NCBI GenBank assembly: GCA_963782525.1
Contig: CAWAKC010000004.1
Location: forward strand, 117,528 to 181,527
DNA from: Candidatus Bathyarchaeota archaeon
GTDB taxonomy: Archaea > Thermoproteota > Bathyarchaeia > Bathyarchaeales > Bathycorpusculaceae
Reading direction: 5' to 3'
DNA: 64,000 bases
In this document: piece by piece, positions 21,099 to 49,250 of the stretch
Layout of the letters: every line of letters begins with the position of its first letter
Numbering within the stretch: position 1 is the stretch's first letter
Made by a program: the position numbers and the translations under genes
The notes under the pieces: generated by a model
The model's database searches: none
What the model was told of the DNA's origin: nothing
Seen by the model: only the letters and a program-made list of their open reading frames with translations

Positions 21099-21238
21099 TG
21101 GTGGGGCTGATCGGATTTGAACCGATGACCAACGGGTTTCCCCAAAGTAGACCGCTCCAGAATTTCGTCATCCCCTAACGGGTCAAGCAATCAATGCTTT
21201 CTGGAGCCCGCCGTACTACCTGGCTATACTACAACCCC
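21099..21238 (-). tRNA. tRNA-Trp(CCA) with 63-nt intron at 37/38 (intron 21138-21200), CCA encoded
   Basis: GGGGTTG/CAGCCCC acceptor, GCGGG-CT-CCA-G anticodon arm, ATCGG-TTCAAAT-CCGAT T-arm; BHB with CTCC/GGGG helix and AGA and AAA bulges; T-rich tract downstream. Confidence 0.96.
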
Positions 21239-44283: not shown

Positions 44284-45570
44284 TTATCCAATAGGCTTGT
44301 ACCTCAAAATTGCGGCAAAGCCTCCTAAAGCTTTGAGCTGTGCTTTTTCTTCTGATGCCGTAGAAATAACTTCAACGCTTGCGTTTGTTTGCGTCGCTAA
44401 ATCCTCCAGCATGTCGATTATGTCTCTTTCGCTAACCTCGTATGAAACTGCGCTGCATTTTTCGCATGGACTTGTTATCATTTGCTGCACTGTTTGAGTT
44501 TTCTTATCAGCAATCGCTGTTTTGGGATGCCCGCACTTTTTGCATACTGCAACAAGCTCGGCGAAATCTGTGCTATCGGAAACTATTGCAGTTTGAGCTT
44601 CACCTTTCTTAAGTGCCTCTAACACTGAATCCAGCCCATAAGTAGCTAAACCGTCCTGTTTACTGATTGATGTCATTAGGCGCTGTACGATTTTTTTCTC
44701 TTCGGGTCCACACATAGTCTTCAAAATTTCTAAAGATTTGTCTAGTACTTCCTTTAGCGCTTCTTTGCTTGCAGATTGGGTGTCAACCACGTTGAGAAGC
44801 ATGTTGGCTAATTCATAGTGAAGGAAGTCTCCTTTTAGGAAATCGTTCTTTGTTTGGCCCGGTCCCCCAGCTATGAGTACGTTTACTTTGTTTTCAAGGA
44901 ATTCTTTAGCTGCATGTTCCGCAATCCTATGGAAAAACGCTGTGACTGCAGTGTCGCGTTCTCTTTCATATCGCCTTTGGCTTGACCCTCCCTTTCCTGA
45001 TTTGCCCGCTACTCCAGACGAGATGTTTTCCATTTTTTCGATGCGCTCCCCGTTGACTATACCCAAGCTGGCTTGCTTAGAATCCAATGCGAGAATCCCA
45101 ACAATTTTTTGGTCCCGCAGCATTTCTCTTAGAGTTTCTAAGTGGAAATGGTCATCAACCACATACGAGTAGGTGGTAATCGGCTCGGGCGGAATTATCT
45201 CTTCCACGCTTAAAACTTCCTTTGTGGCTCCGTTAGATGGGAATGTTCCAGCAAACAGCGCCAACCCATTCTCTGGAATTTCCTTCTCCTGTTTTAGATG
45301 CGAAATTAAACTCTTAAGAGCGTTTTCAAAGCGTTCCTTGACGCTCTCAGATTCCCTTATCTGCTTATCGGATTCTTCCTTGAGGCTCGCGACTATTTGG
45401 CTCATTGAAACCTTGCTGGGTACGTAGAGTGAAATGAATTCTCTGGCTCTTCCCTTTTGCTGGGATAGGTATGATATTCGCTTTCGGAGCTTATGCTGTT
45501 TTACCGAATTAGAAGTTGCCATTTGACAAGAAGAGAAATGTGTAGCTTTTTCAGTAACCAAATTTGGCAC
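44284..45570 (-). CDS. aRF1 (peptide chain release factor) paralogue with degenerate motifs
   Basis: FISLYVP, NGLALFAG, PPEPI, AGPG, YGLDSV, EVIS...E.AQL..LGGFAAILRY; GGS replaces GGQ. Confidence 0.9.
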   Translation of the reverse strand: MPNLVTEKATHFSSCQMATSNSVKQHKLRKRISYLSQQKGRAREFISLYVPSKVSMSQIVASLKEESDKQIRESESVKERFENALKSLISHLKQEKEIPENGLALFAGTFPSNGATKEVLSVEEIIPPEPITTYSYVVDDHFHLETLREMLRDQKIVGILALDSKQASLGIVNGERIEKMENISSGVAGKSGKGGSSQRRYERERDTAVTAFFHRIAEHAAKEFLENKVNVLIAGGPGQTKNDFLKGDFLHYELANMLLNVVDTQSASKEALKEVLDKSLEILKTMCGPEEKKIVQRLMTSISKQDGLATYGLDSVLEALKKGEAQTAIVSDSTDFAELVAVCKKCGHPKTAIADKKTQTVQQMITSPCEKCSAVSYEVSERDIIDMLEDLATQTNASVEVISTASEEKAQLKALGGFAAILRYKPIG

Positions 45571-45666
45571 CTAAGATAGCAACATCCCGTAATGATTTAT
45601 TGGTTTCCTAAAATTAATCCAGTTAGTTTATATTGCATAACATTGCATGAAACGTCTGAAATTCAC

Positions 45667-45801
45667 ATGCCGAAAAAGAATCAACTGGAAAAAATATGTC
45701 CTGAATGCGAAGAAGAAATGAATCCGGTATATGATAAAAGTAAGGTTCTTATTTGCTGGGAATGCACCGAATGCGGCACACATGTTTCAGCGACTAAATA
45801 A
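45667..45801 (+). CDS. 44-aa zinc-ribbon microprotein
   Basis: MPKKNQLEKICPECEEEM...WECTECG, two CxxC. Confidence 0.65.
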   Translation: MPKKNQLEKICPECEEEMNPVYDKSKVLICWECTECGTHVSATK

Positions 45802-45852: not shown

Positions 45853-46329
45853 TTAGTTTTTGTCAGCTTTAAATTCTATTTTGCCGCATTTTGGACATAG
45901 ATAAACGATTACAGGCAGAACTTCTTCTCCGAGTCTCTCTGAGTCCTCGCCAGCAAGTTTTGGATGCGATTCTCCCCACCCATCTATGCTTAATTTGGTC
46001 CTCGTTTGAGACATTTCGACATTACACAAAGAGCACAAGTCTACTTCGGCTTCTTTCATTTCTCCCACTTCTGTTTTTTCGTCATTTATGGGTGTAGTAT
46101 CAACCTGAGTTTTCTCCGCCTCAATTCTTTGAGACACACTTTCGTTACTCCCTAAAAATCGGCAGGGCGTCGCACAATCAAATACAAACATGCAAAGGTA
46201 ACAACAGGTCAACTTCTCTTCATTTTTGCATCGAACCTGCCTGCTTGCCTTTGCTTTCACATTGTCAGAAACAGCTAGACACAATTTCTCACTTGTTAAA
46301 TATTCACAGCTATTAGCTAAGTCAGACAA
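45853..46329 (-). CDS. Cys-rich protein with C-terminal zinc ribbon
   Basis: N-terminal C...C...C...CCYLC...C cluster; CSLCNVEM...YLCPKCGKIEF. Confidence 0.7.
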   Translation of the reverse strand: MSDLANSCEYLTSEKLCLAVSDNVKAKASRQVRCKNEEKLTCCYLCMFVFDCATPCRFLGSNESVSQRIEAEKTQVDTTPINDEKTEVGEMKEAEVDLCSLCNVEMSQTRTKLSIDGWGESHPKLAGEDSERLGEEVLPVIVYLCPKCGKIEFKADKN

Positions 46330-48398: not shown

Positions 48399-48480
48399 TC
48401 CCTATACAAAACTGGAAGTAAATAATTATAAATTCAATTCTGAGTATTATCTGTAGTCTTGAGTTAGTTTTTAAGAGGAG

Positions 48481-49250
48481 ATGAGTAAAACGCCACGGGA
48501 AATCGTTGTGAGTAATGGTCATGTACTAGTTGCCCTTGACAATAAGATGATGATAAGAGACTTCTTTTATCCAAATATTGGTTTGGAGAATCACGTATAT
48601 GGGCACTCTTTCAAGTTAGGCATCTGGACAGACAACAGGTTCTCTTTGGTTGACAAGAATTGGGATGTAAAAATGAAAATCTTGCCCGAAACCTTGGTCA
48701 AAACGTGCATGGCGGACAATGAAGGAGCGGCTCTTCAACTTGAGATTAACGATGCCGTTCACTGTTCAATGGATTTGTAAATTAGCAAAATTGTCATCCA
48801 AAATAACATTGATAGAAAAAGAGAAGTCCGATTGTTCTTTTCTCATAACTTCCACATTTATGGATTAGATACAGGGGACACTGCAGTCTACGAACCCCCT
48901 ATGAAATCGATTATTCATTACAAACGAAAACTCTATTTCCTTATCAATGGCATAACAGATCAAAATCAAGGAATTTATCAATTTGTAACAGGTCAGAAAG
49001 AGTCATTTGGCAAAGAAGGAACTTGGAAAGATGCAGAAGACGGGGATCTCCAAGGAAACTCTTTAGCTCAAGGCTCTGTTGATTCAACAGTTTCTTTCAA
49101 TATAGAAATTGAACCTCACTCATCAAACAAACTGTGTTGTTGGATAGCCTGCGGCAAAGATCTCAATCAAATCAAAAATCTCGACTAGAGAATTAAGAAA
49201 ACTGGGGAAACCAGTTGGCTGATCCTGATGCTGACGGCATCACTCAGTTG
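48481..49250 (+). pseudogene. Truncated GH15 (glucoamylase/trehalase-like) N-terminal region
   Basis: IRDFFYP.IGLENH, FFSHNFHI, GDTA, EGTWKDAEDG.LQGN..AQGSVDS; same frame with stops at 48778-48780 and 49186-49188; no catalytic barrel follows. Confidence 0.75.

What the first reader, a model, noticed from the sequence alone, without database searches (positions are those of the whole stretch)
44284..45570. Release-factor paralogue that has lost GGQ, NIKS and YxCxxxF
Seen: GKSGKGGSSQRRYER (GGA-GGG-TCA at 44983-44991), no NIKS (QIRESES), and YVVDDHF in place of YxCxxxF, yet the full three-domain architecture with a zinc mini-domain is kept. Established: the GGQ Gln is required for peptidyl-tRNA hydrolysis, and the other two motifs read stop codons. 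Inference: a catalytically silent A-site mimic acting in ribosome rescue, hibernation or termination control, distinct from Pelota. The Gln two residues later might rescue activity.
Basis: partly seen in the sequence, partly recalled or inferred. Interest (0 to 1): 0.66.

Follow-up and report, generated by a model that had tools for sequence, protein, structure and literature searches.

The report
Stop-codon-blind aRF1 paralogue family
This gene encodes an intact, conserved extra copy of the archaeal protein that normally ends translation; the copy has lost the parts that read stop codons and no longer needs its catalytic glutamine, so it probably acts on stalled or idle ribosomes rather than ending normal proteins.

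Summary
ORF 44284-45570 (minus strand, 428 aa) is a full three-domain aRF1/eRF1 homologue with GGS (GGA-GGG-TCA, 44991-44983), no NIKS and no YxCxxxF.

GGS is not private to this assembly. The protein belongs to a monophyletic family of more than 200 distinct sequences. At least 109 loci in species-representative genomes carry it, mostly Bathyarchaeia from soil and peat and a few Nitrososphaerota. No member has NIKS or YxCxxxF.

The motif GKGG-x-SQRRYERER is invariant except at x, which is S, Q, W, E, M or A and has changed at least 17 times.

The gene is under purifying selection (dN/dS 0.10-0.22). Close relatives appear in wetland metatranscriptomes.

The family is sister to Nitrososphaeria-type canonical aRF1 (NJ bootstrap 100/100), not to the Bathyarchaeia canonical aRF1. 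One closed chromosome carries both a canonical aRF1 and a family member. I could not find the canonical copy in the window's own lineage.

Best reading: a stop-codon-independent A-site factor whose GG loop still works at the peptidyl-transferase centre. Whether it hydrolyses peptidyl-tRNA or is silent is undecided.

I found no description of this family. Similar NIKS/GGQ-less aRF1 relatives were proposed as archaeal Balon in other phyla in 2026.

The parts
44284..45570 (-). CDS of the aRF1 paralogue (428 aa from GTG 45570, stop TAA). The start is probably the GTG, because the first 16 residues (..THFxxCQ) are conserved in homologues.
45523..45570 (-). Family-specific N-terminal extension (VPNLVTEKATHFSSCQ). 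Its F and C are nearly invariant in the family, and canonical aRF1 lacks the extension.
45343..45363 (-). QIRESES, the loop that aligns with the NIKS stop-codon-reading motif (I71-R72-E73-S74 against N-I-K-S). It is the least conserved stretch of the family.
45145..45165 (-). YVVDDHF in place of YxCxxxF. The Cys is missing in every family member. The DDHF tail is shared with Nitrososphaeria-type canonical aRF1 (Y[RM]CDDHF).
44956..44997 (-). [quoted passage not shown] It is invariant across the family except for the third residue of the GG-x triplet.
44983..44991 (-). GGA-GGG-TCA = Gly194-Gly195-Ser196, the GGQ-equivalent triplet.
44770..44784 (-). DTQSA, replacing canonical DTGYTG. The canonical invariant Tyr (A. 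pernix Y257, which contacts aEF1alpha R413) is Ser in 187/204 paralogues. The neighbouring Asp (A. pernix D254) is kept.
   Evidence: PMC3467058
44455..44544 (-). Zinc-ribbon mini-domain in domain C (CKKC ... CEKC). All four Cys are invariant.
44299..44328 (-). LGGFAAILRY, the C-terminal GILRY-type motif that aRF1, eRF1 and Pelota use for the translational GTPase. It is retained.
   Evidence: PMC2613156

Best explanation
The gene encodes a functional, stop-codon-blind member of the aRF1 lineage. It is an extra copy that descends from a Nitrososphaeria-type aRF1 and is now widespread in soil and peat Bathyarchaeia.

Shown: it keeps the eRF1-type N, M and C domains, the C-terminal GTPase-binding motif, and an invariant GG loop flanked by basic residues. 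It has lost both stop-codon-reading motifs, and the Gln side chain is no longer under selection.

Inferred: like aRF1 and aPelota it is brought to the ribosomal A site, probably by aEF1alpha, although GTPase coupling is altered because the coupling Tyr is lost. It binds without reading a stop codon and places its GG loop at the peptidyl-transferase centre.

My committed choice is that it acts as a codon-independent release or rescue factor for stalled ribosomes. This is ArfB/ICT1 or Vms1 logic built on an eRF1 scaffold. Hydrolysis would depend on the glycine-dictated backbone geometry, and the Gln side chain would be dispensable.

I put about 0.8 on 'stop-codon-independent ribosomal A-site factor that is not the cell's terminator'. 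I put about 0.4 on the specific claim that it still hydrolyses peptidyl-tRNA.
For: - Architecture and homology.
- Family size: 120 of the 120 best database hits, plus at least 109 loci in species-representative genomes, all without NIKS or YxCxxxF.
- Loop conservation: GG is invariant in 204/204 sequences and SQRRYExxR is invariant, while the x position took at least 17 changes among S, Q, W, E, M and A.
- Selection and expression: dN/dS is 0.10-0.22, purifying but more relaxed than in neighbouring genes at 0.02-0.07. Metatranscriptome contigs 90-95% identical cover parts of the gene.
- Origin: the family is monophyletic and sister to Nitrososphaeria-type canonical aRF1 in 100/100 NJ bootstraps. 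Bathyarchaeia have their own canonical aRF1 with all three motifs.
- Co-occurrence: a canonical aRF1 and a paralogue lie about 1 Mb apart on the closed chromosome OY969807.1, and both occur in MAG Maxine3.
- Stop codons: the window uses all three (TAA 24, TAG 12, TGA 8 of 44 long ORFs), so an omnipotent terminator is still needed.
- Literature: any mutation of the glycines abolishes release, while the Gln side chain has a 'packing role' and catalysis is assigned to its backbone amide (PMC5799190, PMC6742477, PMC3467058). The GGQ loop is not needed for aEF1alpha binding (PMC3467058), so its conservation points to a role on the ribosome.
Against: - Every release-factor-like family known to hydrolyse peptidyl-tRNA keeps the Gln (canonical RFs, ArfB/ICT1, VLRF1). 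Burroughs and Aravind use its presence as the criterion for activity (PMC6514570). Its free replacement here, including by bulky Trp and acidic Glu, argues that hydrolysis is not the selected function.
- There is no conserved gene neighbourhood to point to a pathway.
- The canonical aRF1 was not found in the window's own lineage. The best I obtained is a canonical aRF1 and a paralogue in the same ENA assembly ERZ25039519, which is probably a whole-sample assembly.
- The AlphaFold model is mediocre (pLDDT 67.6) and no ribosome docking was possible.
- The tree is distance-based only.
Confidence: 0.45

Rival explanations
1. Catalytically silent A-site and PTC occupant. The protein binds idle or stalled ribosomes without releasing the peptide. 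It would act as a hibernation or parking factor (Balon-like), or as a Pelota-like adaptor for ABCE1-driven splitting. This is essentially the first reader's reading.
For: The Gln position is evolutionarily free, with at least 17 changes including W, E and M. All known active hydrolases keep the Gln (PMC6514570). NIKS and YxCxxxF are lost, as in Balon and Pelota (PMC10901736). Foldseek finds Balon (E 2.6e-10) and Pelota (E 1e-8) after aRF1/eRF1. NIKS/GGQ-less aRF1 relatives in other archaeal phyla were proposed as archaeal Balon (PMC13324472). The hosts are slow-growing peat and soil archaea, where dormancy factors are plausible.
Against: Pelota has lost the whole loop and Balon replaced it with a different lasso loop (PMC2613156, PMC10901736). 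Here GG and its flanks are the most conserved part of the protein. To my knowledge (not checked here), eRF1 with AAQ still binds ribosomes, so binding alone should not need invariant glycines. About 40% of members keep GGQ and the inferred ancestral state includes Q. The scores on the Balon models fail by far: 39 bits against a cutoff of 320.
Confidence: 0.35
2. A release factor with altered codon specificity. It would serve a recoded or context-specific termination event, for example a second terminator in organisms that reassign a stop codon.
For: The eRF1-type N domain is retained with several family-conserved segments (NSVKQHKLRK, IPENGLAxFAGT, PPEPI, DDHFxLEPLREMLRD). Methanosarcina offers a precedent of a second aRF1 discussed in the context of Pyl decoding (PMC12626013).
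Against: The loop that replaces NIKS is the least conserved region of the family, which is not expected for a codon reader. All three stop codons are used normally in the window and I saw no sign of recoding. The one in-frame TAA (48778-48780) lies in a truncated gene remnant. The window contains only one tRNA gene, whose anticodon I did not check. A terminator should keep its Gln.
Confidence: 0.07
3. It is the organism's only aRF1: the original Bathyarchaeia terminator was displaced by this xenologue.
For: Only negative evidence. I could not find a canonical aRF1 in any Bathyarchaeia genome that carries the family. PGAP's equivalog model would name the protein aRF-1.
Against: A closed chromosome with a family member also has a canonical aRF1. 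Canonical Bathyarchaeia aRF1s are abundant in the same habitats and studies, such as SPRUCE and MFD. All three stop codons are in use. The Gln is freely replaced and NIKS and YxCxxxF are absent, which would be unprecedented for an essential terminator. My searches were capped and could not scan the relevant genomes, so the negative result is weak.
Confidence: 0.03
4. A decaying duplicate with no function, or a sequencing artefact.
For: dN/dS is higher than in neighbouring genes. Some copies in nanopore-derived MAGs are split by frameshifts.
Against: The reading frame is intact across more than 200 sequences down to about 48% identity, with dN/dS 0.10-0.22 at dS up to 1.8 and blocks of invariant residues. 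GGS is encoded by TCA, TCG, TCC, TCT and AGT in independent assemblies. Transcript contigs exist.
Confidence: 0.02

Closest known systems
Canonical aRF1/eRF1 (class-1 release factor; TIGR03676, Pfam eRF1_1/2/3)
   Same: Same three-domain fold and order. The best sequence and fold matches are aRF1/eRF1 (4af1 E 2.6e-51; Foldseek E 7.7e-22). The GG of the GGQ loop, the basic helix after it, the C-terminal GILRY-type motif and the zinc ribbon found in related archaeal aRF1s are all kept.
   Different: No NIKS and no YxCxxxF. The Gln is replaced by Ser and is variable in the family. The Tyr that couples to aEF1alpha is replaced. There is an added conserved N-terminal extension. It forms a separate monophyletic clade and scores 332-374 bits on TIGR03676, against 452-541 for canonical proteins.
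Methanosarcina barkeri second aRF1 (aRF1-2)
   Same: A second aRF1 homologue in an archaeon that also has an active aRF1. It is reported inactive in termination and its function is unknown (PMC2943090, PMC12626013).
   Different: Different phylum. I could not obtain its sequence, so relatedness is untested. My tree places the present family next to Nitrososphaeria-type aRF1, which implies an independent origin.
'Potential archaeal Balon' (NIKS- and GGQ-less aeRF1 relatives; PMC13324472) and bacterial Balon/Rv2629 (PMC10901736)
   Same: Members of the aeRF1 superfamily that lack the stop-codon and catalytic motifs, form their own clade and coexist with a normal aeRF1. They are proposed or shown to bind the A site of non-translating ribosomes.
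   Different: Those are reported only in Methanosarcinia, Syntropharchaeia and Thermoplasmatota, not in Bathyarchaeia or Nitrososphaeria. Balon has a lasso loop and an HP motif instead of the GG loop. The present protein fails the Balon models (39 and 18 bits against cutoffs of 320 and 330), and 40% of its family still has GGQ.
Pelota/Dom34
   Same: A paralogue of aRF1 that is codon-independent, delivered by aEF1alpha in archaea, and used for ribosome rescue with ABCE1.
   Different: Pelota has an Sm-like N domain and a truncated M-domain tip without any GG loop (PMC2613156). Here the N domain is eRF1-type and the loop is the best conserved element. TIGR00111 scores 70 bits against a cutoff of 177.65.
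Codon-independent peptidyl-tRNA hydrolases ArfB/YaeJ/ICT1 and Vms1/VLRF1
   Same: Functional analogy only: a release-factor catalytic loop used without stop-codon reading to free stalled ribosomes (PMC3950681, PMC6514570).
   Different: ArfB and ICT1 belong to the unrelated bacterial RF fold. VLRF1 lacks the C domain and keeps its Gln. All of them conserve the Gln, which this family does not.

Membership tests
Canonical aRF1/eRF1 (stop-codon-dependent class-1 release factor) | Three domains eRF1_1, eRF1_2, eRF1_3 in order | tested here: met
   Pfam E 8.7e-10, 1.4e-28 and 6e-19. The Foldseek top hits are aRF1/eRF1.
Canonical aRF1/eRF1 (stop-codon-dependent class-1 release factor) | Score above the curated cutoff of the equivalog model TIGR03676 | tested here: met
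   344.7 bits against a cutoff of 234.7. Canonical relatives score 452-541 and family members 332-374, so the model does not separate the two.
Canonical aRF1/eRF1 (stop-codon-dependent class-1 release factor) | NIKS (NIK[SLND]) motif in the N domain | tested here: not met
   It aligns to IRES. It is absent from all 120 database relatives and all genome loci of the family.
Canonical aRF1/eRF1 (stop-codon-dependent class-1 release factor) | YxCxxxF motif | tested here: not met
   YVVDDHF in the window. No family member has the Cys.
Canonical aRF1/eRF1 (stop-codon-dependent class-1 release factor) | GGQ motif | tested here: not met
   GGS in the window. In the family the third residue is S 116, Q 74, W 6, E 4, M 3, A 1. 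It is Q in 18/18 canonical controls.
Canonical aRF1/eRF1 (stop-codon-dependent class-1 release factor) | Orthology: groups with the host lineage's aRF1 as its single copy | tested here: not met
   It forms a separate clade, sister to Nitrososphaeria-type rather than Bathyarchaeia aRF1, with 100/100 NJ bootstraps. It coexists with a canonical copy on OY969807.1.
Canonical aRF1/eRF1 (stop-codon-dependent class-1 release factor) | Stop-codon-dependent peptide release | not testable with these tools
   Needs a biochemical assay.
Pelota/Dom34 | Score above the TIGR00111 cutoff; Sm-like N domain | tested here: not met
   70.1 bits against 177.65, covering the M and C domains only. The N domain matches eRF1_1 and eRF1 N-domain structures.
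Pelota/Dom34 | M-domain tip truncated, no GG loop | tested here: not met
   The full-length loop has invariant GG.
Balon / Rv2629 ribosome hibernation factors | Score above the cutoffs of NF052289 / NF052287 | tested here: not met
   39 bits against 320, and 18 bits against 330.
Balon / Rv2629 ribosome hibernation factors | HP motif at the decoding centre, lasso loop and bL27 trap instead of GGQ | not tested
   No alignment to Balon was made. The GG loop is retained, which differs from the description in PMC10901736.
'Potential archaeal Balon' of PMC13324472 | Lacks NIKS and GGQ, forms a distinct monophyletic lineage, and the genome also has aeRF1 | tested here: inconclusive
   The window protein meets the motif criterion and the family is monophyletic. 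About 40% of the family keeps GGQ. Co-occurrence with a canonical copy is shown only in Nitrososphaerota genomes. Relatedness to their sequences could not be tested, and they report no Bathyarchaeia.
VLRF1 (acVLRF1, PF18859) / baeRF1 family 10 (PF18854) | Stand-alone or differently fused RF-PH domain with a conserved Gln; no eRF1 C domain (VLRF1) | tested here: not met
   The Pfam hits of 49.5 and 42.9 bits lie under the stronger eRF1_2 hit. The full eRF1 N and C domains are present.

The most novel reading that the evidence does not exclude
This would be a natural codon-independent peptide-release or rescue factor built on the eRF1 scaffold, in which the 'universal' catalytic glutamine is dispensable. 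Ser, Glu, Trp, Met and Ala would all be tolerated, and only the two glycines and the backbone would matter. That would make it an archaeal counterpart of ArfB/ICT1, spread by gene transfer from Nitrososphaeria into soil Bathyarchaeia. An even more radical reading is not formally excluded for the window's lineage: that it is the sole terminator of these Bathyarchaeia. I rate that at 0.03 or less.
Probability: 0.3. Interest if true: 0.8.

Novelty: new variant of a known kind. Interest (0 to 1): 0.55.

Why it matters
Archaeal ribosome rescue, quality control and hibernation are poorly charted, and Pelota/ABCE1 is the only well-established A-site rescue system.

This is a large, conserved and expressed aRF1-derived family in two abundant soil and peat archaeal groups. 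Automatic annotation calls it 'peptide chain release factor aRF-1' and therefore hides it.

It offers a natural mutational scan of the GGQ glutamine: invariant GG with free x. That bears directly on the long-running question of what the Gln does in peptide release.

Practically, the family passes the TIGR03676 equivalog cutoff. It can therefore inflate aRF1 copy counts, marker-gene contamination estimates and studies of release-factor duplication.

Tried and rejected
**Search for the canonical aRF1 in the paralogue-bearing Bathyarchaeia genomes (failed)**
- The window holds no second eRF1-like ORF, and neither do the flanks of 129 family loci.
- Genome scans with Nitrososphaeria-type profiles A1 and A2 returned other genomes.
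- The two protein searches with Bathyarchaeia canonical aRF1 (A3, P0132) gave no hit on a contig of the same length as a paralogue contig.
- Look-ups gave assemblies JBEKUG, JBIOKQ, JBEKNS, JBEKGM and DATERA, none of them in my paralogue list.
- P0539 (canonical) and P0075 (paralogue) share the ENA assembly ERZ25039519. I rejected this as proof because the ERZ numbers look like whole-sample assemblies.

**Other attempts**
- Conserved neighbourhood: none beyond genus level. The commonest true neighbour, an eIF-2B/MtnA-like gene, occurs in 19 of 129 loci.
- Supplementary tables of the aRF1 copy-number survey are not held.
- Naming of other odd representatives through cluster look-ups was uninformative.
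- The structure prediction gave only a mediocre multi-domain model, usable for fold assignment only.
- Shaw and Green 2007 could not be fetched, so my recollection of its GGQ mutant kinetics is marked as memory.

**Rejected ideas**
- The Gln at +2 as a compensating catalytic residue. It is invariant regardless of GGQ or GGS and is present in some canonical aRF1s.
- The paralogue as an intein-free backup of the intein-bearing canonical gene. It lacks the decoding motifs.
Full report
**1. The observation**

The ORF 44284-45570 on the minus strand is uninterrupted and encodes 428 aa from a GTG, or 413 aa from the ATG at 45525. It carries all three eRF1 Pfam domains in order. It passes the NCBIfam aRF1 equivalog model at 344.7 bits against a cutoff of 234.7.

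Its best solved relative is Halobacterium aRF1 (4af1, E 2.6e-51). In that residue-by-residue alignment:
- GGQ aligns with GGS.
- NIKS aligns with I-R-E-S.
- YHCDSAF aligns with YVVDDHF.

The four zinc-ribbon cysteines are present. One nuance is that only the Gln is gone; both glycines remain.

**2. GGS is not private to this assembly**

The 120 best hits among 5.8 billion proteins are 62-93% identical, and several are named aRF-1 of Candidatus Bathyarchaeia. None has NIKS or YxCxxxF. All share GKGG-x-SQRRYE[RK][EG]R, with x = S (71), Q (39), and W, E or M in the few others.

I back-translated this motif and scanned one genome per GTDB species. Of these, 109 belong to the family: GGS 60, GGQ 43, GGE 3, GGW 2, GGA 1. 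Most come from Bathyarchaeota/Bathyarchaeia MAGs from Danish soils (MFD), SPRUCE peat and Stordalen palsa and bog. A few come from MAGs labelled Nitrososphaerota.

The other ten hits are the ordinary aRF1 of Acidilobaceae and Desulfurococcaceae (NIKL, YxTxxxF, GGQ). NIKL is known for Aeropyrum (PMC3467058).

Ser at x is encoded by TCA, TCG, TCC, TCT and AGT in different assemblies. Sequencing error is therefore excluded.

**3. Selection and expression**

Against orthologues in four related MAGs, dN/dS is 0.10-0.22 at dS 0.23-1.8. This is clearly purifying, but three- to five-fold more relaxed than in most neighbouring genes, such as the class-I Trp/Tyr-type tRNA synthetase gene, MarC and the Na/Ca exchanger at 0.02-0.07.

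Wetland metatranscriptome contigs 90-95% identical cover several parts of the gene. This is moderate evidence that close relatives are transcribed.

There is no conserved operon. Synteny holds only within the genus, and across 129 loci the commonest real neighbour occurs in only 19.

**4. Origin, and the question of the canonical copy**

An exhaustive search of 1.84 billion representatives showed that the nearest canonical aRF1s (40-44% identity) are a group with TA[SG]NIKSDTT, Y[RM]CDDHF and KGGQSARRYE. These come from Nitrososphaerota.

Canonical Bathyarchaeia aRF1s are different. They are the L117-L120 type and the abundant P0132 type, named aRF-1 of Bathyarchaeia and flanked by an amino-acid kinase gene and either SHMT or ribosomal protein S11. 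They are only about 37% identical to the paralogue.

In neighbour-joining trees the 204 distinct family members are monophyletic. They are sister to the Nitrososphaeria-type canonical aRF1 in 100 of 100 bootstraps. The deepest branch consists of two GGW members from Nitrososphaerota-labelled genomes.

I infer that the family arose by duplication of a Nitrososphaeria-type aRF1 and reached soil Bathyarchaeia by transfer. This rests on a distance method only.

Co-occurrence with a normal aRF1 is shown directly on the closed 2.25-Mb chromosome OY969807.1:
- The canonical gene lies at 1.61 Mb. It has NIKS and GGQ, and a LAGLIDADG intein splits its YxC|DDHF.
- The paralogue (GGW) lies at 0.59 Mb.

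The same co-occurrence holds in MAG Maxine3 and, less safely, in SMAG_U7558.

The window does use TAA, TAG and TGA as stops (24, 12 and 8 of 44 long ORFs). An omnipotent terminator is therefore still required.

**5. Anatomy and what it implies**

Within the family the most conserved elements are the following:
- the M-domain tip: G-K-x-x-K-G-G-x-S-Q-R-R-Y-E-R-x-R, with GG invariant in 204/204;
- the helix after it (FFHRxAEHA);
- GGPGxTKxDF;
- the zinc ribbon;
- the C-terminal VEVISxxSEEKxxLxALGGFAAxLRY.

The loop that replaces NIKS is the least conserved region. The family has a conserved N-terminal extension (..HFxxCQ) that canonical aRF1 lacks.

I mapped the A. pernix aRF1 residues that contact aEF1alpha (PMC3467058) onto the family:
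- D254 is kept (203/204).
- E233 stays acidic.
- L293 stays hydrophobic.
- Y257, which is invariant in canonical aRF1 and contacts the Arg that couples decoding to GTP hydrolysis, is Ser in 187/204.

At the x position Fitch parsimony needs at least 17 changes. Even shallow clades mix Q, S, W, E, M and A. The window lies in a 12-tip all-GGS clade that is sister to a 21-tip all-GGQ clade.

The literature states three relevant things:
- The two glycines adopt glycine-only torsion angles, and any mutation of them abolishes release. The Gln side chain has a 'packing role' (PMC5799190).
- The Gln backbone amide is assigned the catalytic role (PMC6742477, PMC3467058).
- The GGQ loop is solvent-exposed in the aRF1-aEF1alpha complex and not needed for it (PMC3467058).

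From memory only, because the paper could not be fetched: Shaw and Green 2007 found that Gln substitutions in bacterial RF1 cost little hydrolysis rate, while Gly substitutions cost orders of magnitude.

**6. Mechanism**

With high confidence (about 0.8) this is a ribosomal A-site factor that does not read stop codons and is not the cell's terminator.

I commit, at about 0.4, to a codon-independent release or rescue factor that still uses the GG-dictated backbone geometry for hydrolysis. The reason is that nothing else explains why exactly GG and its flanks are frozen while x is free.

Its strongest argument is that every known active RF-like hydrolase keeps its Gln (PMC6514570), whereas here even Trp and Glu are tolerated.

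Three readings are unlikely:
- an altered-specificity terminator (0.07);
- a sole terminator (0.03);
- a decaying duplicate (0.02).

**7. Comparison with known systems and novelty**

It is not a canonical aRF1: three defining motifs and orthology were tested and not met. It is not Pelota, because the N domain is eRF1-type, the loop is retained and it falls below the TIGR00111 cutoff. It is not a Balon-family member, scoring 39 bits against a cutoff of 320.

Precedents exist for the idea:
- M. barkeri has a second aRF1 that is inactive in termination (PMC2943090, PMC12626013).
- A 2026 survey proposed NIKS/GGQ-less aeRF1 relatives of Methanosarcinia, Syntropharchaeia and Thermoplasmatota as archaeal Balon. 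It noted that they always coexist with aeRF1 (PMC13324472).

That survey does not report Bathyarchaeia or Nitrososphaeria. I found no paper describing the present family.

I therefore file it as a new variant of a known kind. It is an independently derived, widespread aRF1 xenologue. Its distinctive feature is an invariant GG loop with an unconstrained third residue.

**8. Limits**

- The canonical copy in the window's own lineage was not seen.
- The trees are distance-based.
- The AlphaFold model is only good enough for fold assignment (pLDDT 67.6). Foldseek ranks aRF1/eRF1 at E 1e-22 to 1e-13, then Balon at 3e-10 and Pelota at 1e-8.
- The transcript evidence comes from related strains and from assembled contigs.
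- There is no biochemical evidence.

Noticed in passing
P0122-P0128, P0131 and L114:1102-3888 (+); many other representatives with 'GGQC...' (P0145, P0162, P0174, P0183, P0200 ...): Canonical archaeal aRF1 genes carry one or two inteins (Intein_splicing plus LAGLIDADG, some with an HTH domain). They are inserted exactly inside the two functional motifs: between Yx and C of YxCxxxF, and right after GGQ (before the Ser). I found no paper on aRF1 inteins in the held library.
   Followed up: partly
Representatives P0139, P0155, P0180, P0185, P0225, P0239, P0246, P0250, P0262: Seven of these aRF1 representatives (P0139, P0155, P0180, P0185, P0246, P0262 with both NIKS and YxCxxxF; P0225 and P0250 with YxCxxxF only) have GGW, GGF, GGA or GGS instead of GGQ; the fragment P0239 (GGM) shows neither motif. 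Loss of the Gln therefore also occurs in other aRF1 lineages that still look able to read stop codons. Their taxa and copy numbers are unknown.
   Followed up: no
L131/L224, L163/L244, L156/L241, L145/L146, L138/L199, L149/L178, L167/L193: Seven MAGs carry two copies of the paralogue family that are 55-91% identical, always with the same GG-x state in both copies. These may be real second duplications or mixed bins. An eighth pair (L198/L232) is 100% identical and is probably an assembly duplicate.
   Followed up: partly
L129, L153, L176, L186, L208, L230: In six nanopore-derived MAGs the paralogue is split into two adjacent ORFs. These are likely homopolymer frameshift errors, or possibly pseudogenes.
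   Followed up: no
window 48475-49206 (+): This is a remnant of a GH15-like (glucoamylase-type) gene. Only the first 244 of about 667 codons are present (85% identical to L001 5079-7079), with an in-frame TAA at 48778-48780. It is a truncated pseudogene.
   Followed up: partly
window 21102-21238 (-): Rfam finds a 137-nt tRNA match (51 bits, full model) where ARAGORN finds nothing. It is presumably an intron-containing archaeal tRNA and is the only tRNA in the 64 kb. I did not determine its anticodon.
   Followed up: no
window 45592-45801 (+) and 45853-46329 (-): Two small Cys-rich ORFs lie just upstream of the paralogue: a 69-aa zinc-ribbon-like ORF, and a 158-aa ORF with several CxxC pairs. 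Neither has a Pfam hit. The 158-aa ORF is conserved only in the closest MAGs, with a rather high dN/dS of 0.13-0.30.
   Followed up: partly
L119, L150, L173, L180, L182, L227; P0061, P0537, P0541: Contigs carrying archaeal aRF1 or the paralogue are binned into MAGs labelled as bacteria or Nanoarchaeia (Patescibacteria, Limnocylindrales, Sulfotelmatobacter, Acidoferrum, Zixibacteria, Saccharimonadales, Methylomirabilota). This is evident mis-binning in public soil MAG sets.
   Followed up: no
L245-L264: The canonical Bathyarchaeia aRF1 has a conserved neighbourhood. An amino-acid kinase gene is divergently upstream, and either SHMT or ribosomal protein S11 is downstream. The paralogue has no such context.
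   Followed up: no
window 44284-45570 and all family members: The NCBIfam equivalog TIGR03676 (cutoff 234.7) accepts the whole paralogue family at 332-374 bits. Public annotation therefore names these proteins 'peptide chain release factor aRF-1', which is likely a systematic over-annotation.
   Followed up: yes
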